This document shows positions 7,272 through 55,031 of a DNA stretch of 64,000 bases, one piece after another. The notes under the pieces are model-generated. The model was not told where the DNA came from, did no database searches, and saw only the letters and a program-made list of their open reading frames with translations. Origin of the DNA: Naegleria gruberi (Eukaryota); assembly GCA_000004985.1 (NCBI GenBank), contig GG738862.1; one strand, given 5' to 3'. Every line of letters starts with the position of its first letter. Positions within the stretch are counted from its first letter, which is position 1. A program made the position numbers and the translations under genes.

Positions 7272-7343
7272 CTCCCATGCCGGGAATTGAACCCGGACCT
7301 CCTGGGTGAAAGCCAGGTATCCTAGCCATTGGACTACACGGGA
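7272..7343 (-). tRNA. tRNA-Glu: tRNA-Glu (anticodon UUC)
   Basis: Minus-strand sequence TCCCGTGTAGTCCAATGGCTAGGATACCTGGCTTTCACCCAGGAGGTCCGGGTTCAATTCCCGGCATGGGAG. The 7-bp acceptor stem has one G-T pair. D-arm GTCC/GGAT. Anticodon stem CCTGG/CCAGG with loop CTTTCAC (anticodon TTC). T-arm CCGGG-TTCAATT-CCCGG (B box). No intron. It closely matches the canonical eukaryotic tRNA-Glu. Confidence 0.85.
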
Positions 7344-14525: not shown

Positions 14526-15591
14526 TTGACAATCTTCTATCCAATAAATACATTTCTCGTATTGATTAATCTTGTTTTATTCTCAATACTATTTAACAGA
14601 GGTTCTTTCGTGTTGTCACAATTTTTTCTGAGGAAACCTTTTCAGATGTTTCATTTCAAGGTCGAAATTGATTATTGTCATGTTTTTTTCCAAAAAAATG
14701 TTCATTCCGATTCCTTCATGGAGTGATGATCATCACGTGGTGAATAATCCTCCGATAAATGATGATCAATCCAGTGATGATCATGAAACGTCTACAAACA
14801 ATTTAAATCATGTAAAATTTCCATCATATGATTATAGTTACCTTATTGAAAAACAAAAATTGGAGAATACATTTAATACTGCATTTATTGGTGGTAATGA
14901 TCAAACAGAGTTTAAGAAGTACGATAAATGTATTAGTAATTTTAAATTGGATTCAGTGTCATCTCACTATTGCGAGAATAGTAAACCATACATATCAAAT
15001 AACAAATACTTGAATGAACTCTATCATATTTATATTAATGATGAAAAAAAAATTGAATTGAATAATATTAATCATTTTTACAATAATACTTGGAAGAATG
15101 TTAATTTGGAAAATGAGTGTATTCATTCTATTGAAAATCATTTAAGATCAGTTACTGTTTATGGAAAAAATACTAATTTTTTTGTTTTAAATACATTTGA
15201 TAGATTTAAGGAGATGTTTGATCAAGTTGTTAAAAAAAATGAAATTTCGAATGCAGAATTAAGTAACTTTATATTTATTGGTGGTAATGGCCAAAGTTTC
15301 TTTTATGAATTAAATAGTAATGTACTCATTAATGCACACCAACGGGGTAATGACCATTATTATTGCCTAAAAGGTTGTTTATCGGAAGGTGAATTTGTTG
15401 AATATCTTTGTGTTTACAATTTATCCTATTTGAAATATTCTGTATTTATTTTAACTAATTTTGGAAGAGTTTTATATCAAAAAGAACACAAAATGGTTGA
15501 ACTTGAAACAAAATTGAAATTTATTAAAATAATAGAGAGCAGAATGGGATTTAATTTATTTTATTGTATAATGAGTGATAATTATTTATAA
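14526..15591 (+). CDS. hypothetical protein (copy A); reading frame interrupted near 14680 relative to copy B
   Basis: Track ORFs 14526-14726 and 14668-15591 overlap in different frames. Copy B (29657-) reads MTIFYP...EIDYWSLFFSKKMFIPIPSWSDDHH... as one frame. Copy A has TGTCATG where copy B has TGGTCTTTG, a 2-nt difference. The first in-frame ATGs are MFHFKVEIDY (~14646) and MFFSKKMFIPIPS (~14680). No recognisable domain. Confidence 0.3.
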
Positions 15592-15783
15592 GGGATTTCA
15601 TCAAAAGGAAAAGATTTCACTTTAACAAAATCAAATATAATCAAAAGAAAAGTTAAAAATATTAAATATTTAAAGTGTGGAACATTACTGATACAAACCT
15701 TATCTAATGAATGGATATTTAAAACTAACAATGATTTAAAAACGGTATTTCCATTTTTTAAATCAAAAAAGGACTTCTCTGAT

Positions 15784-16197
15784 TTGGAGGTGCACAACAT
15801 TTTGGGTCTGATTGCCAAATCAAGAAAAAGAAGAACACTACTAGATAACTTATTACCATCATGTATAGAAATAGTTGGAGATAGTGTAAATTCTATTTGT
15901 TTTCTATTACAAGATTATACACTTTATATATCAAATGAAGTTAATCAAAAACATAAGAAAATTTATTCTGTAAATTTCTTAAAATTAAATTTAATAGATA
16001 TTGGAATTCCATTAAAAGAATTAAGTTCAACCTCATTCCAAGATAGAAATTTAATTATTAAAAATAGAGATGGAAACATATTGTTTGGAATTGAAAAAAT
16101 ACCTAAATTAACACATTCCTTAATTTCACATTGCAAATTATTATTTGAAAAATTGAAATTGAATATTTTAACTGATATTGACATTATTTTATGTTAA
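15784..16197 (+). CDS. hypothetical ORF lacking any ATG (possible downstream exon or continuation of the 14526-15591 gene)
   Basis: 137 codons open from a GTG with no internal Met. It is in the same frame as 14668-15591. It is conserved in copy B (30330-30833), where a ~520-nt deletion brings it next to the upstream ORF. Confidence 0.25.
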   Translation: MEVHNILGLIAKSRKRRTLLDNLLPSCIEIVGDSVNSICFLLQDYTLYISNEVNQKHKKIYSVNFLKLNLIDIGIPLKELSSTSFQDRNLIIKNRDGNILFGIEKIPKLTHSLISHCKLLFEKLKLNILTDIDIILC

Positions 16198-29656: not shown

Positions 29657-30358
29657 TTGACAATCTTCTATCCAATAAATACATTTCTCGTATTGATTAA
29701 TCTTGTTTTATTCTCAATACTATTTAACAGAGGTTCTTTCGTGTTGTCACAATTTTTTCTGAGGAAACCTTTTCAGATGTTTCATTTCAAGGTCGAAATT
29801 GATTATTGGTCTTTGTTTTTTTCCAAAAAAATGTTCATTCCGATTCCTTCATGGAGTGATGATCATCACGTGGTGAATAATCCTCCGATAAATGATGATC
29901 AATCCAGTGATGATCATGAAACGTCTACAAACAATTTAAATCATGTAAAATTTCCATCATATGATTATAGTTACCTTATTGAAAAACAAAAATTGGAGAA
30001 TACATTTAATACTGCATTTATTGGTGGTAATGATCAAACAGAGTTTAAGAAGTATGATAAATGTATTAGTAATTTTAAATTGGATTCAGTGTCATCTCAC
30101 TATTGCGAGAATAGTAAACCATACATATCAAATAACAAATACTTGAATGAACTCTATCATATTTATATTAATGATGAAAAAAAAATTGAATTGAATAATA
30201 TTAATCATTTTTACAATAATACTTGGAAGAATGTTAATTTGGAAAATGGGTGTATTCATTCTATTGAAAATCATTTAAGATCAGTTACTGTTTATGGAAA
30301 AAATACTAATTTTTTTGTTTTAAATACATTTGATAGATTTAAGGAGATGGATATTTAA
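29657..30358 (+). CDS. hypothetical protein, copy B of 14526-15591 (frame intact at 5' end, truncated by internal deletion)
   Basis: One continuous frame MTIFYP...EIDYWSLFFSKKMFIPIPSWSDDHH...DRFKEMDI-stop. The last residues arise from the ~520-nt deletion junction. Confidence 0.3.
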   Translation: MTIFYPINTFLVLINLVLFSILFNRGSFVLSQFFLRKPFQMFHFKVEIDYWSLFFSKKMFIPIPSWSDDHHVVNNPPINDDQSSDDHETSTNNLNHVKFPSYDYSYLIEKQKLENTFNTAFIGGNDQTEFKKYDKCISNFKLDSVSSHYCENSKPYISNNKYLNELYHIYINDEKKIELNNINHFYNNTWKNVNLENGCIHSIENHLRSVTVYGKNTNFFVLNTFDRFKEMDI

Positions 30359-30833
30359 AACTAACAATGATTTAAAAACGGTATTTCCATTTTTTAAATC
30401 AAAAAAGGACTTCTCTGATTTGGAGGTGCACAACATTTTGGGTCTGATTGCCAAATCAAGAAAAAGAAGAACACTACTAGATAACTTATTACCATCATGT
30501 ATAGAAATAGTTGGAGATAGTGTAAATTCTATTTGTTTTCTATTACAAGATTATACACTTTATATATCAAATGAAGTTAATCAAAAGCATAAGAAAATTT
30601 ATTCTGTAAATTTCTTAAAATTAAATTTAATAGATATTGGAATTCCATTAAAAGAATTAAGTTCAACCTCATTCCAAGATAGAAATTTAATTATTAAAAA
30701 TAGAGATGGAAACATATTGTTTGGAATTGAAAAAATACCCAAATTAACACATTCCTTAATTTCACATTGCAAATTATTATTTGAAAAATTGAAATTGAAT
30801 ATTTTAACTGATATTGACATTATTTTATGTTAA
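30330..30833 (+). CDS. hypothetical ORF, copy B of 15784-16197
   Basis: Same sequence as copy A, with an upstream extension created by the deletion. It has no internal ATG. Confidence 0.25.
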   Translation: MIDLRRWIFKTNNDLKTVFPFFKSKKDFSDLEVHNILGLIAKSRKRRTLLDNLLPSCIEIVGDSVNSICFLLQDYTLYISNEVNQKHKKIYSVNFLKLNLIDIGIPLKELSSTSFQDRNLIIKNRDGNILFGIEKIPKLTHSLISHCKLLFEKLKLNILTDIDIILC

Positions 30834-30971
30834 TTATTTTACAACTAACTAGAAATTTTTGATTTGTTGATAGAGGGAAGAGACAGGGAAAATACAGCAC
30901 GCATGGTACCTTCTGTAAATCACAACAATTAAAATACAAAAAATTGTGTAAATAATTATAATATTACAAAC

Positions 30972-32870
30972 ATGATGCGCTTGCAAAAGTTAAAAAAAAT
31001 GGGAAAACGAAAACATTCAAAAATTTCAAAGGAAAAGAAAAATATTCATCAAAGGGAGGAAAAGTCTGCACCAGGAGTTGTTATGACTAATTTGCCAGAT
31101 GGAGCATCATTACAAATTTCTACAAAAAAGAAAAAGATGTCTCATGCTTCTTCTACTACTCCGAAGAATGATCAAATTGGATTGGAAATGATTGAAAAAT
31201 GGCAGCAAATTTTGAGTTTGCAAGATACACTCACCCTGATTCTGGGTTACATTCCCGAATATTTATTGGAGAGAACAATGAGATTTGTTAATAGGGATTT
31301 TTATCTTGCATCCTCTGTTGCTTGGAGAGAGAATATTCGAAGTTTGAAAATTCATGCATCATCACTCAAGGAAATAGAGATTGGTATTAAAAGATGGGAA
31401 AAACTCAAGAATTTGAAAGATGTAAAGATTTCGTTTACTGATTTTGATATATGCTATGAGTTTGATGTTTGTTGCTTGAGTCATTTGGGATTTGAAAAAA
31501 TTGGAGTTGTTAATACCACATCAATATTTTCCAAATCTCTTGTTGACACTAAATGGGTTGAAACTTTGAGATATTTACAAATTGATATTCATCAACAATA
31601 TTTTACTGCCTTGTTTGACTTGAATTTACACACTTTGGTTGTACAATTTCTTGAATTGGATGATAGTGAATTAATTATTGGAAAGGATGATAAGCCTTTA
31701 TTTAAAAGTTTAACCCATCTCGATTACTCGAGTATAGCATTCAATAACATGGATGAATTTTTGAATAGACTTGTTAACCTTAAAAAATTGAGAAATGGTG
31801 ATGATGACATGAGTATTGAGAATATCAAATTACCTAATTTGAAACACTATAATTGTATGCATGAATTAATGGGGATAGAAGAGGTATTTCCAAAGTTAGA
31901 ATCTCTAAAATCATATTCTAGTTTTTCAACAGCTAACGTGACAGGAGCAATCTCCCTAAAAACTTTAAAATCGGTAACCCTTAGTTTAGAATCAAAAACG
32001 ATTAGCTCTATTCCAGATGCACTGTTTAATTTACCACTCCTTGAAAAGTTGTCATTGCTTGTCTACTGCTCCAGTCTAACAAAATGTTCAAAAATTAACC
32101 CAAAACCATTGGATAATTTGAAAAAGGTAAAGCTTGTATTTTTTGAATACGAGAACGGTGAGCTTCCAATATCATTCTTTCATTTCAGAAAATGTAGCAA
32201 TATTGAAAAAATTAGATTTGAAGAGGAAAGTCAAAAGGTATTAGTGGATATGAATGATTTTTCAAATTTTCCATTATTGAAAAGTCTAGCAGTAACAGCT
32301 GGATCTGCTTCTAACTGGAATAGTCCTATTTGCACTCTGGAATCATTGGCAATTAATGTAAAAAAACAATGCTCAGTTACACTCACAGGACTAGACAAAC
32401 TGAAGCGTTTGGAATATGTATCACAAAATATGAATAGTCTGGTTCAATATCTAAATGATAACTCTAATGATTGTATTAGAGATTTGAATATTTCTGGAAA
32501 GGATATTTCAAAGTTCACATCATTTCCCTGTTGTTTGGAAACCCTCACCATTACACACATGTATCTAAAAGAAATTAATGAGAGATTTGTGAACATTGTC
32601 AAGAACCAAACCAACCTTAGAAAACTAGTCATTGAGGAATCCAAATTCGACCTGGTTCCACTCTTGGAATCGCTCACTTGTCTCATCCATCAAATTAGCA
32701 AAATACAATTGAGTGGTGAATGCTATCCTATACCATACTCTGAATCCAAATATATTACCAATTTACTCAAAGTCATATCAATATATGACTCCAAGAAAAT
32801 AGATCTCAAACTCAGTGGTTTTAATTATACATTCTCAAATCAATCAACTGGATATCTCATCTCTCAAATC
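30972..32870 (+). CDS. F-box-like/LRR-like protein, copy B (3' end lost in gap)
   Basis: About 99% identical to 16368-18302, with 5-6 amino-acid substitutions. The frame runs into the N run at 32871. Confidence 0.5.
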
Positions 32871-33637: not shown

Positions 33638-35281
33638 TTATTCGAAATGATTGACAGCCATGTGAGTCATAAAGGTGACAGTGGTTGTTACTTGCTTTGT
33701 TGCATCTGTTGGTATAACATCCACTCTCAAAGCATTAGCAGCACTCAAAGACAATCTCACTCTAAATATATCTCCAATACTCATGGACGAAACATCCACT
33801 TTCAGATCTGCCTGAAATACACAACCCATCTCATCAACAAAATTAACCTTTTTGACAGCTCTATAAATTTTGATTTCAATAATAGATGCATCAGTATTCT
33901 TTACAAATTGCTTATCAACATAGAATTGATCAGTGATTTCCTGATTAATGTTAATCATTGAGGAAAATACTCCAGTGCAAACGAAAGGTTCAGCCGAATC
34001 TCCCTCAATTCTCTTAAGTCTCTTCTCATCATCCTTACCAAATTTAAATGCTCTCTCACTTTCAATACCATAGGCATGTTTTGATCTTCTGCATGCAATC
34101 TTGTCTGGATTTCTTCCCAAATAGGCAGCACCTTTTACAACAGATTCAGATCCAAATGAAGGAACGACAATTTTACCCTTTGCCAACTCTTGAAAGACTT
34201 CCATTCTCTTCATAAGAAGTTTGGATTGTGAAAAGCCACCAACAAAGATTAAATAATTATAAATATCCTTATCAAGAATAGAATTGACAAAATCTTCAAT
34301 TTCAGCAAAAACTGAACCAAATACTTCAGTTTCTAATTCTTTCTTTGAAACTACAATGGAATCTAACTTGTACATTGAGTGACCTTTGAGACTTGGAATT
34401 GTGACTTTAAGTGGACAATATCCTTCATAATTAAACATTGTAATCTTTTGACTTTCCCATTGATTAGTAATATTTTGAATGTCAATGGAAGACAATGCAG
34501 AGTACAAATCGCCAAGTTTCGTTTTCAAATACTCTAACAAGAGTCTGTCTAATTTGGTACTTCCAGCATTGATTGCAGTAGAATACCTTGAACACTTTAA
34601 TTTACCATTCAATACACTGACAGCTGTCACATCAACAGTACCACCTCCAGCATCAACAACCAAATATCTTTCCCCATCTTTCATTTGCAATTGACTTTTA
34701 CATTCTTCCAAAATGTAAACAGCAGCAGCTTCAGGTTCCAACAAGAACATGAGAGTTTCTTCACCAGGATCTTCTTCTTCTACCAAACCAGCTTCAAAGA
34801 ACACCTTTTTAATAACTTGAATGTGTTCTCTTTCCCAATTTGCAGGAACAGTTGAAACCCAACGAACAGAATGAGGATCAAGTTTATACTTGGTTAAAGC
34901 AGAAGCAGAGAATAGTTTCAAATAGTCTGCTAGAACTTTAACCACACTGAATGATATGCCATTCACTACCATTTCCTTATCTTCGTCTGGATCAATAAAT
35001 AGAGCTTGTTTCATTCCTGTGAGAAAGTAATAGTTGACTTTAACGTCATCTGTCATGGCAAAGTATTTCTTGCTTGCTTCGTAACCAATGCTATCCACCT
35101 GGAGAAATGAATTGTATAATACACATGTCTTGTTTTTCAGTTGACTTTTACCATTTTCATCATCGTGTCTAACAGTTTCAGGTGTTTGTGAAGTTTGAGG
35201 AAGAACACAAATACCACTCAGTGTCGATCCTAGATCGAGAGAGACGTTTGTTTTAGTGAGTGTGTCAATGAATCCTACCAT
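33638..35281 (-). CDS. HSPA12-like atypical Hsp70 ATPase (~547 aa)
   Basis: The track ORF starts at 35389 with TTG; the first ATG is at ~35279-35281 (MVGFIDTLTKTNVSLDLGSTLSGICV, the phosphate-1 motif). VRWVSTVPANWE matches HSPA12 RWVITVPAIW. LVVDAGGGTVDVTAVSV matches the Hsp70 phosphate-2/GGGT motif. A C-terminal lid-like region follows. Paralogous to 28761-29258. Confidence 0.7.
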   Translation of the reverse strand: MVGFIDTLTKTNVSLDLGSTLSGICVLPQTSQTPETVRHDDENGKSQLKNKTCVLYNSFLQVDSIGYEASKKYFAMTDDVKVNYYFLTGMKQALFIDPDEDKEMVVNGISFSVVKVLADYLKLFSASALTKYKLDPHSVRWVSTVPANWEREHIQVIKKVFFEAGLVEEEDPGEETLMFLLEPEAAAVYILEECKSQLQMKDGERYLVVDAGGGTVDVTAVSVLNGKLKCSRYSTAINAGSTKLDRLLLEYLKTKLGDLYSALSSIDIQNITNQWESQKITMFNYEGYCPLKVTIPSLKGHSMYKLDSIVVSKKELETEVFGSVFAEIEDFVNSILDKDIYNYLIFVGGFSQSKLLMKRMEVFQELAKGKIVVPSFGSESVVKGAAYLGRNPDKIACRRSKHAYGIESERAFKFGKDDEKRLKRIEGDSAEPFVCTGVFSSMININQEITDQFYVDKQFVKNTDASIIEIKIYRAVKKVNFVDEMGCVFQADLKVDVSSMSIGDIFRVRLSLSAANALRVDVIPTDATKQVTTTVTFMTHMAVNHFE

Positions 35282-35441: not shown

Positions 35442-36922
35442 TTATATTGATTCCTTTAATTCAACTTGTTGCTTAGTTTGAACTACAGAATTAACTACTT
35501 GCTTTTCAGAGGAGTGATTAGAATCATTCTTTCTATCCTTAATCTTCTTCCACACAATTTCAATGAAATCAAACACAGCACGTTTATGTCTAACTCTAAA
35601 ATCATGAACATAATAAATCAAACAACTACAATTCCAATACTTAAGGTCAATCAAAAATTCAAAAAGAAAAACGTACGCATTAACAAAAGATCCGCCAATA
35701 ATGTTACCAATTGTTACTGGCAACAAATTCATAATGAAAAAGTCATAGAGAGTTACATTAGCTCCGTACTGTTAAAATCAATGAGAATTCTATTAACTAT
35801 TTGTGGATTAGAAAACTTACAAGCATGCCAAGTGGAATATAGAATGCATTAGCGATAGAGTGTTCAAATCCAAGAGAAACGAATGACATTACAGGAAACC
35901 AAATACCAATAATCTTTGATTGTACTGTAGTAGCTGCTGTTGCATTGAAAACTCCCAATGTAACAAGCATGTTACAAATAATTCCCAATAATACTTGATT
36001 TCCAAATGTCTTATTTGTCTTGGCTTCAGCTAAATGTTTAATATATTCAATCCAATGAGCTGAGCAACATGGTTGTGGCAAATACATGAAGAGATAGGCA
36101 AATATAAAAGCTCCAAAACAATTAAAAATGTAGGTTAGGAATAAGTTCTTCGAAAATTGAGCATATCTAATCAATTTGAGTAAGCATCCAACAATTAAAA
36201 CTTACTGGATGAGAATCTTCTTCGACCTCCAATTTCTCGAGAACAATCCAATCAATACAATCACTACATTTCCTGTAAACAATTCAGAACCAGTAAGATT
36301 GATCAAAATCAACCCAATTGGAAAGACACTATTCAAATAAATAAGCTCAATAACTTGAAAGAACTACTTACGCTCCACCAAAGAATTTTTGAATTCCAGG
36401 ATTTGTTTCTTCCAAACCAGGAGAATTACCTGCTGTAATCACAGTTACTGCACCAGCCAGTCCTTTGAAAATACCAGCAAATAATGACAATATTATCAAT
36501 TGATCAATTGTTAACTTTGATTTCCTAATACCATCTGCCTTGAATTTATCCAAAACCATAGCAGGTGTATTAAATAATACCAAATCTTTCTTCTCTGGTA
36601 TTGGTGTTTCATCATGATGCTTTTCATCAGATAGATGATTACTTGTTAATGTCGATGGAATTGATGATCTCGACAAGACTCTCGGATTCTTTTCCAAGTC
36701 ATTCTCCTCAACATCCAAAATAAATTCCTCCTCTTCTCCATGTTCAGTCGATGCTGAATTTGGGTGTTGTTGTGGGTGTTGTTGTTGTTCTAGTTGAATA
36801 GCATTAAATTCCTTGGCCACCTTGATCGTATTAAGGTTCAACAGCACTGGTGAGTGTAATTCCTCTCCGGATCCGCTCGCTGTTGATACGAGGTGGTGTT
36901 GTTCTTGTTCTTGTTGGCTCAT
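35442..36922 (-). CDS. formate/nitrite transporter (FNT) family protein, paralog 1, 5 exons (~431 aa)
   Basis: Exons (minus strand) are ~36372-36922, 36206-36328, 35821-36166, 35677-35768 and 35442-35625. Introns: 43 nt (GTAAGT...AATAG), 39 nt (GTAAGT...GATTAG), 52 nt (GTAAGT...AACAG) and an in-frame 51-nt intron (GTACGT...TTGTAG) that the ORF track reads through. FNT hallmarks: SELFTGN, LGIICNMLVTLGVF, FEHSIANAFYIPLGM, LLPVTIGNIIGG. N-terminal ~115 aa H/E/Q-rich extension. TAA stop. Confidence 0.85.
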
Positions 36923-37260
36923 GATAATTTGTCAGTTCCTCTCAATTTAATATGAAAATGAGCGAGACGACCTGTTGTGGTGTTTTTTTTTTGTTTCCTT
37001 AAACTCCAACACAACGGATTCTTGATTACGTTTGTGTGTTTCTGGGAAGGGGTACTTAAAAGTGAGGGTGAACATAATAAGGACCTAGAATAGTAATTGT
37101 TTCTGGTGGTTTCGGTTATTTTTTTCCATTGTTGTCGTCCATGATTGTTGGATGCAGAGCATAAATTTCGCCAAAAAAAGGCCTTTGAAAAAATGTCAGT
37201 TCGATCTGGTCATATTTGAAATTAGGTCAGCATTGTTTCATGAACCAGAGGCGGTTTATT

Positions 37261-38825
37261 CTAAACATGTTTTGAAGTATTTTCTTTCAGTTCAATATTT
37301 GAGTCGGTGTTCTTGTTGTTGTTGGATTTGTTATCTTTGATCCTTTTCCACAATTTTTCGAGACCATTAAAGATTGCTCTTTGATGTCTAACTCTATAAT
37401 CATGAACATAGTATAACAAACATCTGATTATTAATTGTTTTAATTAACCATTAAAAAGAATTGATTAACTTACGCATTAAAGATGGCTCCTCCAATAATA
37501 TTTCCAATCGTTACAGGAAGTAAGTTGCCAATGAGGAAGTCATACACTGTGACATTAGCTCCATACTTTTAAAATATATAGTAATCATATGAATCAGATA
37601 CTTACATGCATACCAAGTGGAATATAGAATGCATTGGCAATAGAGTGTTCGAATCCAAGTGCCACAAATGACATAATAGGAAACCAAATTCCAATGACTT
37701 TGCCTCCTAGGGTAGTTGCTGCATTGGCATTGTAAATTGCTATAGTAACCAACATGTTACAAATAATTCCCAAGAGAACAAGACTTCCAAAGGTTTTTGT
37801 TGTTTTTGAGACGGCTGAATTTTGGATAAACGTTATCCAGTGAGCAGAACAACATGGTTGAGGAAGATAAATGAAAAAGTATGCAAACATATAAGCCCCC
37901 AAGCAATTGAAAATGTAGCTCACAAAGAGATTCTTTGAAAATTGTGCATACCTTGAATAATGTGTTAGAAAATTGAGCTCATGGATCTTACTTACTGAAG
38001 TAAAAACTTTTTGGCTCTCCATTTCCTTGCAAATAATCCAATCAAGAGAACAAGTACATTTCCTGTAAATAATTCAGATCCAGTAAAAACAATCAGCATC
38101 AAGCCAACTGGAAAAACACTACAACATGGTTATTATAATATGTTTCGAATAACTTACGCTGCTGCTAATAGCTTTTGCAATCCAGGATTCTCCTCCTCCA
38201 GTTTAGCTACATTTCCTCCTATTAAGGTAGCCATCGCACAAGCAAGTCCTTTGAAAATCCCAGCAAATAACGAAAGAATAATCAATTGGTCAATTGTTAA
38301 TTTAGACTTTTTGATACCATCAACTTTCATTTTTTCAAGAACCATCTTTGGAGAATTAAACAATACAATATCAGGATGAGTATTGATAATCTGTTGTTGA
38401 ATAACTGGTTGTTGTCCTGAATTTTGATTTGCATTTGTTGTCGTCGTCGATGACTCTTTAGAAGCCTTCACATTCTTTTCCTTCTCTCGAACTTCCACAA
38501 TGTCGACAACAACCGTATCGACATCTTTGGTCGATTCTGGAGCCGAAATCTGCTGCTGCTGTTGCTGACGAACAATGGGTTTCTCCTGACTTTCTATTGG
38601 CTGCATATTCGTAAAAGATGAAGAACCAAAAGAATTTTGTTGTTGTACTTGCATGATATCATTCATCGAGTTGTTATTAGTAGTAGTCGAATTAGTATTA
38701 TTAAAGAGGAGCATTGTATTTTCAGTTTGTGGTGGTGGCATTGCCGGATGATAACTCAACAAATTGATAGTAGAATCAATGGATTCGTCGCGGTAAAGGA
38801 GTTGTTGCTGTTGTTGAGTGGACAT
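37261..38825 (-). CDS. formate/nitrite transporter (FNT) family protein, paralog 2, 5 exons (~463 aa)
   Basis: Exons ~38158-38825, 37996-38118, 37606-37951, 37474-37565 and 37261-37423. Introns are 39, 44, 40 and 50 nt, all GTAAGT...AG, at the same positions as paralog 1. Motifs: SELFTGN, LGIICNMLVTIAIY, FEHSIANAFYIPLGM, LLPVTIGNIIGG; C-terminus LLYYVHDYRVRHQRAIFNGLEKLWKRIKD, as in paralog 1. N-terminal ~150 aa Q/N/T-rich extension (MSTQQQQQLL...). TAG stop. The + ORF 37152-37340 is spurious. Confidence 0.85.
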
Positions 38826-39187: not shown

Positions 39188-40438
39188 TTATTCCATATCA
39201 TTATCAGATAAAACACTATTTGGTGCTGATCCAGATTTTTGCTTAATTAGAACATTTTCCTTAATAAATGTTGAAAGTGCGAGTGCCATCTTCTCATCTC
39301 CAGTAACATGTGGATGTCCATCACAACCCCATTCGTTTGGTTTCAATGTTCCCATAACTTTGGATAAATCATAGTAAAATACAGTCTTTCCATAATTGGC
39401 TTGTCTTTCAGCAATTTGTTTCACATATTGAATGTTACCAAGATGAAGTTTCTAATAAATTTCCAATAAATTTCAAACGAAAGAAACTAAACTTACCACA
39501 AGAACCAATTTCAAATTTGGATTCCTTACCAAATACTTTGCCTTAATAAGATCTATAACTTTCTGATAGCCAGCTCCAAATTCTTCCAATGAAGGTCTTG
39601 GAGGAGTACTAAAATCATTAGTTCCCAAAGAGATTACAACCAAATCTGGAACCACGGAGAAATTCCAAGGTTTTGTGGCATCGTTGGCCAAAGTTCTGCC
39701 ATAGAAAAGTGGAAGAGGATCCTTGGAGACAGTTGACTTGTCGCCATAGTTTCTAACCATTCCTTTACCACTCCAACATTGAACGTGTGAAGTTGTGGCA
39801 TTGAGATATCTGGCAGTTTTTTGGACGAAACTCTCATGAACATTTTCAGTAGCTGCTTCAAAGTGACATGGAGCTACTTTCAAATTTCCATATCCGCAAC
39901 TAATGGAATCACCAATAAATTCCATCTTGAAACTTTTAGACGAAACTATTGGACTCAAAGATTTGATTAAGGCATCACTTTTCAAAATTACAAAACCAGA
40001 AAACCAAACAATTCCAAAACTAGCTTCAGTTCTCTTCTCAATTTCAACTTCGATATTATAAGAATTTGAAGATTGCCTTGCCCATTTGAATTCAACAGAA
40101 TATCCACCATTCTTGGCATCTCTTGGTGTGGTTGCTGAAATGACAAGTGAAGTTAACAATGTCAAACGTTTGTGTTGATCGTTGAGAAGCCAAACGTTGG
40201 CATTGTAAAAGTTTTTAGTTTCTTTCAATTTGACAATTAGTGGAAGAGTTGGTTGAGAATTATCTTGAATGTAATATAAACGAGTAGCCATGGTAAAACC
40301 AGACCAATCGAATAGAATTTGGTCTCCTTGTGTGAAGTAACGACCATTCGAATAAATTACTTGTGGTGATTTAGCCGAAATGGTCAAGGAATAAACAAGG
40401 TGTGAACATAACAAGACACTAACAGCAATTAAACACAA
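39188..40438 (-). CDS. SGNH/GDSL-family hydrolase with N-terminal beta-sandwich domain (carbohydrate-esterase-CE2-like), 2 exons; signal-peptide region out of frame with upstream ATG
   Basis: Exon 1 ~39497-40438, a 45-nt intron (GTAAGTTTAG...TTATTAG) at ~39452-39496, exon 2 39188-39451. SGNH blocks: FIGDSISCGYG (block I, Ser), VISLGTNDF (block III), GCDGHPHV (block V, D..H). CLIAVSVLLCSHLVYS is a signal peptide but has no in-frame ATG. The ATG (~40459-40461) is in another frame and would be restored by removing one A from CTCAAAATTG. Confidence 0.65.
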
Positions 40439-40568: not shown

Positions 40569-41219
40569 ATGGCGCCACTCGCAGTTGCTGTTGGTTGTGA
40601 AGCTTTGTTAATCTCATCATGCCTCTTCGGAATTCATAAATCGATCAAGTACAAGCCTAAAAATTACTTTGGATTTGTATTATTATTTGCATCGATCGCT
40701 GTGGCTGCAGTGTTGGGTATTGGTAATTATGCTTCATTGCATCCATCACTGATTACTATTCATCCGATTGTGAGTGGTTATGTGACTAATAGTATTTTGC
40801 CACTCTTGTTACCATTCTCTGTTTATCAAGCTCTTGATTGTGGACCTGTTCGTATGTCAAAGAATGTTGGACAAGTAGTTTTGGGAGTGTTGATTAGTTT
40901 GATTGCTTTTTTGATTTATAATCCTAAATTTATTACTACTCAATTGGGTGTGGAAGGAGAGGTTATTGTTATTGGATCAGTTGTTTTATGTGTTGTATTT
41001 TCAATTTATGGACTTGTTGCTGGTTATTCCAGATACAGATGCAAGAATATGATTCTATGTGTATTGACAATGCTTTTGGCAGATACTATTTTAAGTAAGA
41101 ATTTATTGGGAACCTTGAATATTAAGACTGACCCTTTTGGAAGTGTTGATGTTTTCCACATTATCTTTGCACTTGCTATGGTATTTTTAGGAAATGTATC
41201 TGGTGGTGCCACCTTTTAA
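40569..41219 (+). CDS. hypothetical multi-pass membrane protein (216 aa)
   Basis: ATG at 40569 after an A-rich leader. Five to six hydrophobic helices (FVLLFASIAVAAVLGIG, VVLGVLISLIAFLIY, VIVIGSVVLCVVFSIYGLVAG, HIIFALAMVFLG). No recognisable family. Confidence 0.45.
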   Translation: MAPLAVAVGCEALLISSCLFGIHKSIKYKPKNYFGFVLLFASIAVAAVLGIGNYASLHPSLITIHPIVSGYVTNSILPLLLPFSVYQALDCGPVRMSKNVGQVVLGVLISLIAFLIYNPKFITTQLGVEGEVIVIGSVVLCVVFSIYGLVAGYSRYRCKNMILCVLTMLLADTILSKNLLGTLNIKTDPFGSVDVFHIIFALAMVFLGNVSGGATF

Positions 41220-50570: not shown

Positions 50571-53500
50571 TTATTTTGGAGAGTACATTCCCAACTTGGT
50601 GTCAAACATGAGTTTGGCTTTTTGTTGTTTACGGAAGAAGCTACTTCTAATTCTAATCTTGATTAATTCATCAATTACAATGAATGCAAATGGTGCCAGT
50701 AAAATGATAATGTAGGCATAGAATGGATAATTTGGCCATGCTTGTACTCCTTCAGGTCTAGAAATAATGAGGTGAATGAATGTGAAAAGAGCTTGCAAAG
50801 CCAAACACAATGGAACACAAATCCACCACATGATATTCATAAAGAATTTAACAGTGAATATTGAGTAAACTCTGTGCATTGTTCCAAGTGAAAGGAAGGA
50901 ATAATAGTAAATCAAAATAAACATGGTAATAGTTTGGGCATATGCCAAAACAAAGTAAAACTTTTCACTCTTTCTAATTTCATTGGATAATTGATCTCCC
51001 CAAATGAGCCCTACATTGTCAATCTTGACAGTTTCATCCATACACATTATAGTCCAAAAGTAAACAACAAAGCAAGCTGGAACTGGAAGGCAAAAACGTA
51101 AAAATGTTAAAAGTGCCTTTCCAACATATCTTCCAGTTCTAAATTCATTCTTTGATGAAATAAGGTCCATAATTTTTGGTTCCATTGGAGTGCCGAGTAG
51201 AGAGAAGGAGATCAATGGAATGGCAATCATGCAAAGCCACAAGAATTGAATACCAGTGAAAATAGTAGATGGAAGGGCCATGAGAACGGAAAGTAATTGC
51301 AAAATGAATAATGAAGATGAGCAACCAAAGAGGAAAATCAAAGCTTGTCTAATATTATGAACCAATCTTCTACCTTCCTTAATCATGTGCAAAATCATAG
51401 AGAATGCAGAAAGAGCAGTCTCGGATTGATGAGAGGTAATGTGTAAAGCACATGGATAGGACAAGAATGGAGAAATATCTTCCTGCAAATCTGAAACTTC
51501 TTCTTGATGATTATCGAATTCCATTGGTCTCAAATGTTGTTGAGTGCAAGGATCAACAGCAATGGAAATATTGGCTTGATTGAAGGCACGAGAATTGTTA
51601 ATGTTGATGGAAGAACCAACACAACAGACAACTTCATGATTTTCCTGCAAGACCTCAATCATTTGCTTGGATGAAACAGGCGTAGAGTCGGAGAATAGAG
51701 AAACCAACAATGGAACATCGTCAACAGTTTTCAAGTGTTCCTTGATATTTTCAATACCGTGTGGAAGTTTGGCTTTCAAATCTTCAACATCCAGTTCAAC
51801 TTCATTATCATTCAATGATATGCAACAATTCCAATCAACTTCCATTCCCAATTTTGAACCAAAAGCTTTGGTTTTTTGGGAATTATATGGTGAGAAGTGA
51901 ATAAATCTAATACCAGAGTTGTCTTGAACGTCACTAATAAATTCGGCAAGATCTCTCTTTGGCTGCTGTCTGAAAGCTGCAACTCCCAACAAAATTTGTC
52001 CTCTTTGCATTTGTTCTGCATGTAAGATGAATTTTTCACTGTCAAAATCTTCTTCAGAGAATTCTTCGAGTGGTGTCAATAAATGTTGAGATAGAGATGC
52101 AGGGCTAATAATTCCATTGAGTTCTGTCTTTGAATGATTAATTTCTTGACGAGTAATGTTGATAATATCATCCTTATTGCTATTCAAAACATTATCATAC
52201 TTAGGATCAATTGGGGTGTACGAAATAGCCAAACAATATAAATCTCTTCTTTCTCTCCAATTCTTGACTGTTTCCAAAATATTTTCCTTGAATTGCTTAC
52301 TCAGTGGTTTAATATCTGTTCCAGAGTAATAGTCAGAGCAATATTCCAATACTAAATCTGGATCACCAAAGGAGTGAACTTGTTTTTCTTGTTCCTCATA
52401 CTCAACTACAATAGAGCTCATTTCCCAATTATTACATTGGGTGTGGAGTCTCTTTTTAAAAGTAAATGATTCTAAAACACTGTCTGAGAAACCAATTTCC
52501 TTACCAAGAAGATAAGCATACTTTTTCCAAAGGTGAGACTTGGCATCCAACATTCCTTCAACTCTATCAAAATCTGGAAGAGGGGAAGAACCCGTAATAA
52601 GCAAACTCAAACCAAGTGGTTTAAGTGAATTAGTGTGAACCATCCAATTAGGATCAGTGAATCTGATGACATCCACCTCTCTTGATGCAGTTCTATCAAA
52701 GAGGACATCCAAAGTAATAGTTTCTTCAGCCTTCTCAATGATTTGCATGTTGGATACATCAAGAGGGTTAGCCGCATGACTTGACTCTGATGCTTGGTGT
52801 GTTTCAGTGTGATGTTCATGTCTTTCCTTATTGTGTGTATGAGATTGAGAATGTTGATGATGGTGATGATTGATTGTTTCATCTTCAGGTCTTTCGACAG
52901 TGATGGTAACTTCTGATGGAATGACTTCATCATTAACATTAATTCCACCTACCATTTCGTCAACTTCATCACCCATACCAGTCTTTACAACAACCTTAAT
53001 CTTTTCCATATCCTTGAGTTCCATTTCAGTAGCATCAGTCAAATCCTCAGGATAGTTATTGGTGCATGAGACAATCTGGCTTGGTGTACTGTTTCTTCTA
53101 TCTCTAGTGCTGGCATATTTACTATTTTGTTCTGTATATTGTTCTTCTGAAATATCGACAGCGCTTGTAAAGTTGTTGTGTCTTTCATCATCTCCCTTCA
53201 TGAATAAAACCTTCTCTGGAGCATACAGCAAGTCAGCCAATAAACCAGTTCTGTTAATAAAGCACAAGGCAGTGATTGTTCCCAACACTGTCAAGTTATC
53301 GTAATAGCTAGCATTGGCAGTAAGAATAACTTTGAAAAAGTTTCGTACTTGACTAAGGAATGGAACTTTCATTGGAGTATTACGATTTGATTCAGTGACT
53401 TGAACTCTTTTCATGTGATCATCCCCGCTCTCACCATGCAATGGCTCGTTGAGAGTTTCGAACAGAGAGAGGAGTTTAGAGTTGGAAAATGATAATGAAA

Positions 53501-55031
53501 GCAACCAAAACCCAGGGAAGGCGATTGGTAGCAGAACTAAACAGACATAACATGGCTCCACAAAGGCAAATGTAACCCAGTCATATGATGCTGATCCAAC
53601 GCCAATTCTAATCAAATTACAAATCAGAGCAATACAATATCCAAGGTAGGAAACTATGGTCAATACTGAAATCAAGTTATTGAGCTTGATTTTGAGAGGC
53701 ATCTTTTCCTGTTGATTTCTATAATCCTCATAAGTTTCTTCAATATAGTGACTCATTGGAGTTAAAGAAATCTTATAAAATCCCTTCTCCAATTCTTGAT
53801 GGGCTTCAAAACTAATATTATTATCCTTAAAATCTCTATCAATATTGGTTGAATAAACCAAGTCTCCCTTCACCAATAAAATGTGTGGCATCTTACTCCA
53901 GCACTTATCTCTAAAAACAAAAATCATCTTGTATGGAATCATGTTAATACCTTCAAATAAATTACCATCCTTGCTTTTCATGGAAAAGTTAAAATCATTC
54001 TTTTTCAAAATTGAAAACTTTTGTTTCAGTAAACTGATCACAACGCTATGTCTTCTGTAGTATGAAATGAGTGTCACACTCAAAAAGAAGATTAGTACAA
54101 AGAGTAAAATTGTTGCCTCAACAACTAATCTAATAGCTCCGTAATGATCCTCAAAAGGAATGCCGCCAAATTTCAATCCAGCTGCAATATATAACAGGAT
54201 ACAACACACAAATCCAAGAAGTACCAATAATCCTGCTCTAATAGGACTTTTCCTAATTAACACATCCACTAACGCCATAATAAATCCTTGTTTCGATCTA
54301 TTCTCAATTTTTTCAATAGTTTCCTCCAAAGAATCGAACAAATTTTGCTTGGCTTCACTCGTTGAAAGTCCATCCACTAATGAACTCTTAAAATTCGAAA
54401 GTGGTGAAATATTATCATGGACTTTAAAGTTCTTTTCCGAATGTTGAACAGAAGTTACAGATGACAAAATTTGAGGTGAAGTTACTTCCGAACTTTTTCT
54501 AGCATTATGAGACCCCTTTGCTGACAATGATGAAGTACTTCCAAAGCCTCTTGATGCTTTCACGCTTGAAGTTGGTAATTTCTTATTTGCTGTTGTTGAT
54601 AATGAATTTGTATTGTTTTGTAATGATGGATTAGAAGGATTATTGCTGGACATTGCTGTACTATTGTTAATATTTGTATTATTGCTAGTTTGATGTTGTG
54701 AATGTTGTGAATCGTGTTCACTTTCTTCGTTATTCGATGATTCTCTTGAAATATATTCCATAGAATTTGGAGAAGTAAGCCTTGTCTCTTCATGTTGTTG
54801 TTGTTGATGATGCTCTTCTTCTTCGTGATGATGATTCGACATGGTTTCATCTGTTGTTCCGGAAGGTAAATTTTCATCATATTCAGAATGATGTTCTTCC
54901 AAATGTTGTTGTTCCTCTTCGTGTTGTTGTTCCTCGCCTTCGGTTGTTGTTGGTGGCGAAACAGTCGCCACTGCTGCATCACCAGAATTCTCTTCTATTG
55001 AAATTTGTTCTTCTTGCAGAGGTGAAGACAT
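50571..55031 (-). CDS. P-type-ATPase-like polytopic membrane protein with degenerate catalytic motifs (non-canonical phosphorylation site), 1486 aa, single exon
   Basis: ATG at 55029-55031. The H/E/Q-rich N-terminus is followed by TM helices. LGTITALCFINRTGLLADL aligns with the P-type phosphorylation loop LGSTSTICSDKTGTLT, but DKTGT is replaced by INRTG (Asp lost). VVCCVGSSININNSRAFNQANISIAV aligns with the hinge [24 protein letters not shown] but is also degenerate. C-terminal multi-helix bundle. TAA stop. Confidence 0.65.
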   Translation of the reverse strand: MSSPLQEEQISIEENSGDAAVATVSPPTTTEGEEQQHEEEQQHLEEHHSEYDENLPSGTTDETMSNHHHEEEEHHQQQQHEETRLTSPNSMEYISRESSNNEESEHDSQHSQHQTSNNTNINNSTAMSSNNPSNPSLQNNTNSLSTTANKKLPTSSVKASRGFGSTSSLSAKGSHNARKSSEVTSPQILSSVTSVQHSEKNFKVHDNISPLSNFKSSLVDGLSTSEAKQNLFDSLEETIEKIENRSKQGFIMALVDVLIRKSPIRAGLLVLLGFVCCILLYIAAGLKFGGIPFEDHYGAIRLVVEATILLFVLIFFLSVTLISYYRRHSVVISLLKQKFSILKKNDFNFSMKSKDGNLFEGINMIPYKMIFVFRDKCWSKMPHILLVKGDLVYSTNIDRDFKDNNISFEAHQELEKGFYKISLTPMSHYIEETYEDYRNQQEKMPLKIKLNNLISVLTIVSYLGYCIALICNLIRIGVGSASYDWVTFAFVEPCYVCLVLLPIAFPGFWLLSLSFSNSKLLSLFETLNEPLHGESGDDHMKRVQVTESNRNTPMKVPFLSQVRNFFKVILTANASYYDNLTVLGTITALCFINRTGLLADLLYAPEKVLFMKGDDERHNNFTSAVDISEEQYTEQNSKYASTRDRRNSTPSQIVSCTNNYPEDLTDATEMELKDMEKIKVVVKTGMGDEVDEMVGGINVNDEVIPSEVTITVERPEDETINHHHHQHSQSHTHNKERHEHHTETHQASESSHAANPLDVSNMQIIEKAEETITLDVLFDRTASREVDVIRFTDPNWMVHTNSLKPLGLSLLITGSSPLPDFDRVEGMLDAKSHLWKKYAYLLGKEIGFSDSVLESFTFKKRLHTQCNNWEMSSIVVEYEEQEKQVHSFGDPDLVLEYCSDYYSGTDIKPLSKQFKENILETVKNWRERRDLYCLAISYTPIDPKYDNVLNSNKDDIINITRQEINHSKTELNGIISPASLSQHLLTPLEEFSEEDFDSEKFILHAEQMQRGQILLGVAAFRQQPKRDLAEFISDVQDNSGIRFIHFSPYNSQKTKAFGSKLGMEVDWNCCISLNDNEVELDVEDLKAKLPHGIENIKEHLKTVDDVPLLVSLFSDSTPVSSKQMIEVLQENHEVVCCVGSSININNSRAFNQANISIAVDPCTQQHLRPMEFDNHQEEVSDLQEDISPFLSYPCALHITSHQSETALSAFSMILHMIKEGRRLVHNIRQALIFLFGCSSSLFILQLLSVLMALPSTIFTGIQFLWLCMIAIPLISFSLLGTPMEPKIMDLISSKNEFRTGRYVGKALLTFLRFCLPVPACFVVYFWTIMCMDETVKIDNVGLIWGDQLSNEIRKSEKFYFVLAYAQTITMFILIYYYSFLSLGTMHRVYSIFTVKFFMNIMWWICVPLCLALQALFTFIHLIISRPEGVQAWPNYPFYAYIIILLAPFAFIVIDELIKIRIRSSFFRKQQKAKLMFDTKLGMYSPK

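What the first reader, a model, noticed from the sequence alone, without database searches (positions are those of the whole stretch)
35442..38825. Tandem pair of formate/nitrite transporter genes with four position-conserved mini-introns, one of which is in-frame and invisible to ORF scanning; both carry long low-complexity N-terminal extensions
Two FNT genes lie head-to-tail on the minus strand, ~340 bp apart. Both have five exons with introns at identical codon positions: after FFGGA/LLAAA, after ...KILIQ/KFLLQ, after PLGML/PLGMH, and after ...NA. In paralog 1 the last intron is 51 nt (GTACGT...TTGTAG), a multiple of three, so the ORF track reads through it and inserts 17 spurious residues (YVFLFEFLIDLKYWNCS). 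In paralog 2 the homologous intron is 50 nt and must be spliced; the exon sequences align only when both are removed (…FVNA|CLIYYVHDF vs …IFNA|CLLYYVHDY). The paralogs are fairly diverged, so this is an older tandem duplication retained as two genes. Both add 115-150 aa of H/E/Q/N/T-rich N-terminus before the FNT core, which is atypical for this family.
Basis: partly seen in the sequence, partly recalled or inferred. Interest (0 to 1): 0.5.

Follow-up and report, generated by a model that had tools for sequence, protein, structure and literature searches.

The report
Two unannotated Naegleria formate/nitrite transporter genes
The region holds two intact, tandemly duplicated formate/nitrite-transporter genes of the amoeboflagellate Naegleria gruberi, each with four tiny introns, one of which happens to be readable as protein; this is ordinary biology, but both genes appear to be missing from the public protein set.

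Summary
Two five-exon formate/nitrite transporter (FNT) genes lie head to tail on the minus strand, 338 bp apart: A at 37261-38825 (463 aa) and B at 35442-36922 (431 aa). Their introns sit at the same four codon positions with the same phases (2, 2, 0, 2).

B's last intron is 51 nt, in frame and stop-free. I read it as a true intron on comparative evidence:
- A has a 50-nt intron at the same site.
- An environmental Naegleria-like gene has a 41-nt intron there.
- Twelve relatives show no insertion.
- The 17 extra residues would split the last transmembrane helix.
- It is open only because its 5' site is GTACGT. The consensus GTAAGT in phase 2 reads as a TAA stop.

- The organism is Naegleria gruberi (Heterolobosea), not an amoebozoan.
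- Long N-terminal extensions are usual in heterolobosean FNTs.
- Introns 1, 3 and 4 are older than the duplication. Intron 2 is unique to this pair.

Neither gene has a public N. gruberi protein model. No transcript evidence was available. This is an ordinary gene pair, plus an annotation gap.

The parts
37261..38825 (-).
   Evidence: The spliced model is open and a multiple of three. It matches Pfam PF01226 at E = 2e-68 over residues 162-415. The best public hit is N. lovaniensis at 65% identity, with no N. gruberi model.
35442..36922 (-).
   Evidence: Spliced model. It matches Pfam PF01226 at E = 3e-66 over residues 123-376. The closest solved structures are LCIA (1e-36), PfFNT and FocA, and the alignments are colinear.
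38119..38157 (-). A intron 1: 39 nt, phase 2, GTAAGT..TAG
   Evidence: The same site and phase carry an intron in five relatives and in L006.
37952..37995 (-). A intron 2: 44 nt, phase 2, GTAAGT..AAG
   Evidence: This site carries an intron only in A and B.
37566..37605 (-). A intron 3: 40 nt, phase 0, GTAAGT..AAG
   Evidence: The site is shared with three N. lovaniensis genes and L006.
37424..37473 (-). A intron 4: 50 nt, phase 2, GTAAGT..CAG; it must be spliced
   Evidence: Read-through hits TAA at once.
36329..36371 (-). B intron 1: 43 nt, phase 2
36167..36205 (-). B intron 2: 39 nt, phase 2; a multiple of three, closed only by the TAA inside GTAAGT
35769..35820 (-). B intron 3: 52 nt, phase 0
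35626..35676 (-). B intron 4: 51 nt, phase 2, GTACGT..TAG; in frame and stop-free, read by ORF scans as 17 extra residues
   Evidence: It is the only GT..AG pair that restores a colinear protein. A and L006 have a homologous intron. No relative has an insertion here. The site lies in the middle of the last transmembrane helix, TM6.
38367..38825 (-). Coding region for A's 153-aa N-terminal extension, rich in Q, S, T and N
   Evidence: The frame is open from the first ATG, with chance P about 8e-6. Relatives carry comparable extensions.
36581..36922 (-). Coding region for B's 114-aa N-terminal extension, rich in E, S, L, Q and H
   Evidence: The frame is open from the first ATG, with chance P about 2e-4. 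Relatives carry comparable extensions.
36923..37260 (-). 338-bp spacer between A's stop codon and B's start codon. It presumably holds A's 3' end and B's promoter.
   Evidence: The spacer shows no alignable similarity to the region upstream of A. The promoter role is inferred.

Best explanation
These are two functional paralogous genes of Naegleria gruberi, made by a tandem duplication within the N. gruberi lineage. Each encodes a formate/nitrite transporter (FNT) family membrane protein. Such proteins form pentamers in which every subunit has six transmembrane helices and its own pore. They carry small monovalent anions or weak acids (formate, nitrite, lactate, acetate, bicarbonate or hydrosulfide, depending on the member).

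Both copies keep the pore Thr, the central His and the conserved Lys. Which substrate they carry cannot be read from the sequence.

Each gene has four very short spliceosomal introns (39-52 nt) at the same positions. The last intron of gene B is a normal intron that happens to be a multiple of three and free of stops. The reason is that its 5' site is GTACGT rather than GTAAGT, and GTAAGT in phase 2 supplies an in-frame TAA.

Both proteins carry a long, poorly conserved, probably disordered cytosolic N-terminal extension and a short C-terminal helix. Both features are typical of the heterolobosean clade. A role in regulation or sorting is only inferred.

Shown here: gene structure, family membership, positional conservation of the introns and purifying selection. 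Inferred: actual splicing, expression, substrate and the role of the extensions.
For: **Family membership.**
- Both proteins match Pfam PF01226 over the full length of the model.
- Their alignments to LCIA, PfFNT and FocA are colinear. The FTGN Thr, the FEHS His and the conserved Lys align with the corresponding residues in those structures.
- The same columns are invariant or nearly invariant across 56 homologues.
- An AlphaFold2 model of the annotated paralogue P0005 is confident (mean confidence score pLDDT 93.9). It matches PfFNT, LCIA, FocA, HSC and NirC, with target-normalised TM-scores of about 0.8-0.9.

**Organism.** Three window ORFs are 100% identical to N. gruberi proteins EFC45690, EFC45693 and EFC45696, all on one 502,116-bp scaffold.

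**Duplication.**
- A and B are 72-74% identical over the conserved core.
- dS is 1.39 and dN/dS is 0.13.
- Relative-rate tests show no asymmetry between the copies.
- A and B are sister genes at 85% bootstrap.
- Intron 2 is found only in these two genes.

**Intron 4 of gene B.**
- Gene A has a 50-nt intron at the same site and phase.
- L006 has a 41-nt intron there, and its exon 4 is also 92 nt.
- Intron-less relatives read straight through the site without a gap.
- The site is residue 250/251 of a continuous helix spanning 226-262.
- It is the only splice choice that gives a colinear protein.
- The stop is lost through the GTACGT variant.
Against: - No transcript or cDNA evidence could be reached, so none of the eight junctions is verified.
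- GTACGT departs from the GTAAGT seen in 7 of the 8 introns here and 11 of the 13 in relatives. Splicing could therefore be less efficient.
- A crude dinucleotide test does not separate the 51-nt segment from exon sequence. It scored -2.6 bits, and 24% of exon windows scored at least as intron-like.
- The read-through peptide is moderately hydrophobic, so composition alone does not exclude translation.
- Both proteins score below NCBIfam's curated cut-offs, so no functional subfamily can be assigned.
Confidence: 0.85

Rival explanations
1. The 51-nt segment of gene B is kept in part of the mRNA. Retention is in frame and stop-free, so the transcript would escape nonsense-mediated decay and yield an isoform with 17 extra residues in the last helix. 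This could be tolerated noise or a regulated variant.
For: The 5' site GTACGT is off consensus. The segment is the only one of the eight introns that is open in frame. The inserted peptide is fairly hydrophobic, with mean Kyte-Doolittle hydropathy 0.72. Composition does not mark the segment clearly as intron.
Against: The insert would break the last transmembrane helix, TM6, right after the invariant GNIIGG motif. None of 12 relatives has any insertion there. The homologous introns in A and L006 cannot be retained without hitting a stop. The open frame is unremarkable by chance: P is about 0.34 given 51 nt, phase 2 and GTACGT.
Confidence: 0.1
2. The 51 nt are simply coding sequence, an insertion specific to paralog B, and B has only three introns.
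For: The ORF is uninterrupted from exon 4 to the stop codon.
Against: The segment has exact GT..AG borders at a site where A and L006 have introns that must be spliced. It sits in the middle of a helix. No relative has an insertion. A and B align only when it is removed.
Confidence: 0.03
3. One of the two copies is a silent or decaying duplicate.
For: Neither copy has a public gene model or a transcript-derived protein in the databases searched.
Against: Both copies keep open frames, all splice sites and all invariant family residues. dN/dS is 0.13 with dS about 1.4, and the rates of change are symmetrical. A dead copy would not stay intact over that much divergence.
Confidence: 0.06
4. The N-terminal extensions are not translated. 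Translation starts at the conserved internal Met (MVLDKF / MVLEKM), the start used by the annotated 315-aa N. gruberi paralogue P0005.
For: P0005's public model begins at exactly that Met. The extensions are low in complexity and barely conserved.
Against: Both frames stay open for 114 and 153 codons upstream, with chance P of 2e-4 and 8e-6. The same holds in N. lovaniensis (three genes), Willaertia (two), N. gruberi P0007 and L006. The residues just before that Met (VLFNTP) are conserved. The short P0005 model may itself be truncated.
Confidence: 0.12

Closest known systems
Heterolobosean FNT proteins (N. lovaniensis C9374_001649 and C9374_006145, N. fowleri, N. gruberi NAEGRDRAFT_55063 and NAEGRDRAFT_68315, Willaertia magna)
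   Same: They share 54-69% identity with A and B over the core, a long N-terminal extension and a C-terminal helix after TM6. Introns are shared at sites 1 and 3.
   Different: A and B form their own sister pair, are arranged in tandem and carry intron 2, which none of the others has. The N. lovaniensis genes lack introns 2 and 4, and two of them have an extra intron after GIFKG.
Chlamydomonas LCIA / NAR1.2 (PDB 9v2a)
   Same: It is the best-scoring solved structure by sequence, at E = 1e-36. The Thr, His and GN..GG motifs are conserved.
   Different: LCIA is a plastid-envelope protein of an alga, deposited as a bicarbonate transporter. It is only about 34% identical to the modelled paralogue P0005 in the fold-search alignment. 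Nothing here supports that substrate or location.
Plasmodium PfFNT (PDB 6vqq, 7mxy), a lactate/H+ transporter
   Same: It has the same fold and the same FTGN motif, with Gly after the pore Thr.
   Different: Identity is about 29-30% in the fold-search alignment to P0005. PfFNT has no long N-terminal extension (309 aa in total). Its substrate cannot be transferred to A or B from sequence.
Bacterial FocA and NirC
   Same: They belong to the same family and share the pore residues. The closest relatives outside Heterolobosea are bacterial FNTs, at about 40-46% identity.
   Different: A and B score far below the equivalog cut-offs: 137-143 bits against 290 for FocA, and 74-84 against 293 for NirC. 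The bacterial proteins are about 260 aa with no extensions.
Stop-free '3n' introns mistaken for exon (Roy and Penny 2007, PMC1950532)
   Same: B's intron 4 is a textbook case: its length is a multiple of three, it has no in-frame stop, and ORF-based reading treats it as exon.
   Different: The cause is visible here. A single A-to-C difference at position +4 of the 5' splice site removes the stop that the consensus supplies in phase 2.

Membership tests
Formate/nitrite transporter family (Pfam PF01226) | Profile match above the curated threshold across the whole domain | tested here: met
   A scores 230.8 bits and B 223.7 bits against a cut-off of 34.6. Both cover profile positions 2-240 of 240.
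Formate/nitrite transporter family (Pfam PF01226) | Pore residues: Thr of the (L/F)FT motif, the central His of FEHS, and the conserved Lys before TM4 | tested here: met
   Both proteins have ELFTGN, GFEHSIAN and the conserved Lys. These residues align with the corresponding FocA and PfFNT residues. The columns are invariant or nearly invariant in 56 sequences.
Formate/nitrite transporter family (Pfam PF01226) | Six-helix, aquaporin-like FNT fold | tested here: met
   This was tested by proxy only. The AlphaFold2 model of N. gruberi paralogue P0005 (about 60% identical to A and B) has mean pLDDT 93.9. It matches PfFNT, LCIA, FocA, HSC and NirC with target-normalised TM-scores of 0.8-0.9.
Formate/nitrite transporter family (Pfam PF01226) | Pentamer formation and anion or weak-acid transport | not testable with these tools
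   Needs expression and transport assays.
FocA (formate channel) equivalog | Score above the NCBIfam equivalog cut-off | tested here: not met
   TIGR04060 gives 136.8 and 142.7 bits against a cut-off of 290.1. NF008069 gives 95 and 110 bits against 440.
NirC (nitrite transporter) equivalog | Score above the NCBIfam equivalog cut-off | tested here: not met
   NF008595 gives 84 and 74 bits against a cut-off of 293.
Spliceosomal intron (for segment 35626-35676) | GT..AG borders at a position homologous to introns that must be spliced | tested here: met
   The segment runs GTACGT..TAG. Gene A has a 50-nt intron and L006 a 41-nt intron at the same codon and phase.
Spliceosomal intron (for segment 35626-35676) | Removal restores colinearity with intron-less homologues | tested here: met
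   No gap remains against 12 relatives once the segment is removed. It is the only productive GT..AG pair that does this.
Spliceosomal intron (for segment 35626-35676) | Absence from mature mRNA | not testable with these tools
   No transcript data are available. No transcript-derived protein for this locus is in the protein collection.
Tandem paralogues from a lineage-specific duplication | The two copies are each other's closest relatives and share derived characters | tested here: met
   A and B are sister genes at 85% bootstrap in a neighbour-joining tree on 196 columns. Intron 2 is exclusive to the pair.

The most novel reading that the evidence does not exclude
The A-to-C change that turned GTAAGT into GTACGT in gene B's last intron both weakened the splice site and removed the built-in stop. 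A share of B transcripts would then keep the 51 nt, escape nonsense-mediated decay, and give a second protein form with a lengthened or broken last helix. That would be an early step of an intron becoming coding sequence, or a regulated inactive isoform.
Probability: 0.07. Interest if true: 0.4.

Novelty: new member of a known kind. Interest (0 to 1): 0.2.

Why it matters
The practical value is annotation.
- The N. gruberi reference protein set appears to lack two of its five FNT genes. These two are the co-orthologues of the main N. fowleri / N. lovaniensis FNT clade. Comparative inventories of Naegleria transporters would therefore undercount the family.
- FNTs are absent from humans and are drug targets in Plasmodium and Toxoplasma, so a correct inventory in the Naegleria genus has some applied interest.
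- The 51-nt intron is a clean teaching example of why stop-free introns whose length is a multiple of three defeat ORF-based reading. It also shows how the consensus 5' splice site normally guards against this.

None of this changes what is known about the family or about splicing.

Tried and rejected
- **Synteny.** I compared the window with the N. lovaniensis and Willaertia loci. Nothing matched beyond the FNT genes themselves.
- **Composition test.** A dinucleotide model of intron against exon did not classify the 51-nt segment: -2.6 bits, with 24% of exon windows at least as intron-like.
- **Splice-site usage.** Hexamer counts and an ORF-bridging heuristic were meant to show how often GTACGT is used as a 5' site in this window. 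Control hexamers scored similarly, so the test says nothing.
- **Structure prediction.** The annotated paralogue P0005 was modelled instead.
- **N. gruberi genomic context.** The gene-position index does not hold this genome. Intron positions of P0005, P0007 and P0040 could therefore not be checked.
- **Exact look-up of other ORFs.** The 216-aa ORF and the GDSL-like ORF between the FNT pair and EFC45693 gave no match. The two free accession numbers, EFC45691 and EFC45692, could not be assigned directly.
- **Promoter similarity.** The regions upstream of A and B do not align.
- **Literature.** Searches found no paper dealing with Naegleria FNTs.
- **Amoebozoan origin.** Rejected on exact protein identity to N. 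gruberi.
Full report
**What is in the sequence**

Read on the minus strand, 35442-38825 contains two sets of open reading frames broken by short GT..AG segments. Joining them gives two complete coding sequences.

|---|---|---|---|---|
| A | paralog 2 | 38825-38158, 38118-37996, 37951-37606, 37565-37474, 37423-37261 | 39, 44, 40, 50 | 463 aa |
| B | paralog 1 | 36922-36372, 36328-36206, 36166-35821, 35768-35677, 35625-35442 | 43, 39, 52, 51 | 431 aa |

- Seven introns begin GTAAGT. B's last intron begins GTACGT.
- Intron phases are 2, 2, 0, 2 in both genes, and exons 2-4 have the same lengths: 123, 346 and 92 nt.
- The genes are 338 bp apart.
- The intron sequences of A and B are no more alike than shuffled controls. 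The exons are about 75% identical at the DNA level, with identities of 78%, 89% and 53% at codon positions 1, 2 and 3.

**What the genes encode**

- Both proteins match the Pfam formate/nitrite transporter (FNT) model over its whole length, with E = 2e-68 and 3e-66.
- Both align colinearly with solved FNT structures. The best is Chlamydomonas LCIA (1e-36), followed by PfFNT and FocA.
- The pore Thr (ELFTGN), the central His (GFEHSIAN) and the conserved Lys are all present. They fall in columns that are invariant or nearly invariant across 56 homologues.
- Both proteins score below the NCBIfam cut-offs for FocA, NirC and even the general FNT subfamily model. The substrate therefore cannot be assigned.
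- The structure tool would not accept spliced proteins, so I modelled the annotated N. gruberi paralogue P0005. The model has mean pLDDT 93.9. It matches PfFNT, LCIA, FocA, HSC and NirC with target-normalised TM-scores of about 0.8-0.9.

**Which organism**

The closest proteins are from Naegleria and Willaertia. After those come bacterial FNTs at about 40% identity.

A P-type-ATPase-like ORF in the window (50571-55031) is 100% identical over 1486 aa to N. gruberi NAEGRDRAFT_66466. Two further ORFs are exact matches to EFC45690 (33641-35281) and EFC45693 (41247-44693). All lie on one 502,116-bp scaffold.

The window is therefore Naegleria gruberi, a heterolobosean, and not an amoebozoan.

**Apparent annotation gap**

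- Neither spliced A, spliced B nor read-through B is in the 15-billion-protein collection.
- Homology searches with B and with A returned no N. gruberi protein more than 60% identical.
- The three annotated N. gruberi FNTs (NAEGRDRAFT_55063, NAEGRDRAFT_68315 and NAEGRDRAFT_32700) sit on other scaffolds.
- Only two accession numbers, EFC45691 and EFC45692, lie between the flanking genes. That interval also holds a GDSL-lipase-like gene and a 216-aa membrane-protein ORF.
- I could not assign those two numbers directly. A model sharing only a short exon would have escaped my thresholds. The gap is therefore well supported but not proven.

**Is the 51-nt segment an intron?**

Six lines of evidence say yes:
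1. Gene A has a 50-nt intron at the same codon and phase, and it must be spliced.
2. An environmental Naegleria-like contig (L006, 43% GC) carries a full FNT gene with introns at sites 1, 3 and 4 in the same phases. Its exon 4 is also 92 nt, and its intron 4 is 41 nt.
3. The N. lovaniensis and Willaertia genes lack this intron and read straight through the site with no gap. None of 12 relatives has an insertion.
4. The site corresponds to residue 250/251 of P0005. That is the middle of a continuous helix spanning 226-262, just after the invariant GNIIGG motif.
5. Among all frame-preserving GT..AG pairs nearby, only this one gives a colinear protein.
6. The reason it is open is clear. In phase 2 the consensus GTAAGT reads xxG TAA, an immediate stop. 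Three of the eight introns are multiples of three. A1 and B2 are closed by that TAA, and in B2 it is the only stop. B4 has GTACGT, which reads TAC.

Given 51 nt, phase 2 and GTACGT, the chance of no further stop is about 0.34. The open frame therefore needs no special explanation.

Against this, composition does not distinguish the segment from exon sequence. The 5' site is off consensus, and I had no transcript data. Partial retention remains possible.

**History of the pair**

- A and B are 72-74% identical over the core. dS is 1.39 and dN/dS is 0.13. Neither copy is evolving faster than the other.
- In a neighbour-joining tree they are sister genes at 85% bootstrap. They sit, with weak support (39%), next to the clade of N. 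lovaniensis P0001 and P0002, N. fowleri P0003 and L006.
- Intron 1 is shared by all heterolobosean genes examined. Intron 3 is shared by all the Naegleria-type genes examined. Intron 4 is shared by A, B and L006. Intron 2 is found only in A and B.
- The duplication therefore happened in the N. gruberi lineage, after intron 2 appeared, and it is old.
- Willaertia (two genes about 41 kb apart on one contig) and the N. lovaniensis/N. fowleri lineage have their own separate duplications.

**The extensions**

The N-terminal regions are 153 aa in A and 114 aa in B. They are far too long to stay open by chance. Comparable extensions of roughly 100-200 aa occur in N. lovaniensis, N. gruberi P0007, Willaertia and L006, but they are barely conserved. 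They are unusual for the family at large, since bacterial relatives are about 260 aa, but normal for this clade.

The clade also has a C-terminal helix after TM6 that the two bacterial homologues aligned lack.

From general knowledge of FocA, whose cytoplasmic N-terminus takes part in gating and partner binding, a regulatory role is plausible. It is untested.

**Verdict**

This is a correct and careful observation of an ordinary pair of genes from a known family in a sequenced model organism. The in-frame intron is an instance of a known annotation pitfall (Roy and Penny 2007, PMC1950532). What is new is modest. The two genes seem to be missing from the public protein set, and the open intron traces to a single base in the 5' splice site.

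Noticed in passing
window 35442-38825: Neither FNT gene has a matching N. gruberi protein in the public collections searched. The flanking genes are annotated as EFC45690 and EFC45693, leaving two accession numbers for at least four loci.
   Followed up: partly
window 38119-38157, 36167-36205 and 35626-35676: Three of the eight introns are multiples of three. Two are closed by the TAA that GTAAGT creates in phase 2, and in B's intron 2 it is the only stop. The third is open because it has GTACGT.
   Followed up: yes
L006 379-1842 (ENA ERZ27315067, contig k141_284580): This environmental contig (43% GC) carries a complete Naegleria-like FNT gene with a His-rich N-terminus. The public product P0009 is a prokaryote-style call that reads through two introns and exon 4 in the wrong frame.
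   Followed up: yes
P0003 (N. fowleri) and P0005 (N. gruberi NAEGRDRAFT_55063): The N. fowleri model begins with about 30 residues unrelated to the family, which suggests a missed intron or first exon. The N. gruberi model P0005 starts at the conserved internal Met and may lack its N-terminal extension.
   Followed up: no
N-terminal extensions of P0001, P0002, P0007 and L006: A short motif rich in His and Tyr (HHHYHHF/Y, or QQYHYHYY in P0007), preceded by hydrophobic residues, recurs about 60-100 residues before the core. In A and B that position holds an acidic stretch instead (VVVDIVEVREKEKN / FILDVEENDLEKN).
   Followed up: no
L003 and L004 (Willaertia magna JBEGDK010000058.1); L001 and L002 (N. 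lovaniensis): Each heterolobosean lineage has its own recent FNT duplicate pair. Willaertia's two copies lie about 41 kb apart on one contig, and N. lovaniensis's lie on different contigs. This suggests repeated independent duplication of the family.
   Followed up: partly
one search hit list: Among the 120 best hits listed, the closest relatives outside Heterolobosea are all bacterial or unnamed metagenomic sequences (the named ones are Elusimicrobia, Bacteroidota and Chloroflexi). No other eukaryote appears in that list. This is compatible with an old transfer from bacteria, but no phylogeny was built to test it.
   Followed up: no
window 39188-40438 (-) and 40569-41219 (+): Upstream of gene A lie a GDSL-lipase-like gene, with a GTAAGT intron near 39450-39495, and a 216-aa multi-pass membrane-protein ORF.
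   Followed up: partly
window 33641-35281 (-): Immediately downstream of gene B is EFC45690, a 547-aa protein with only a weak, partial Hsp70/actin-like ATPase match (E = 3e-5).
   Followed up: no
window 3615-6575 (-): A large ORF has NHL repeats and many teneurin-type EGF domains.
   Followed up: no
window 7272-7343 (-): A single tRNA-Glu (TTC) gene is the only Rfam or ARAGORN hit in the window.
   Followed up: no
window 15001-16000 and 30001-31000: Two 1-kb stretches drop to about 23% GC, against about 34% for the window as a whole.
   Followed up: no
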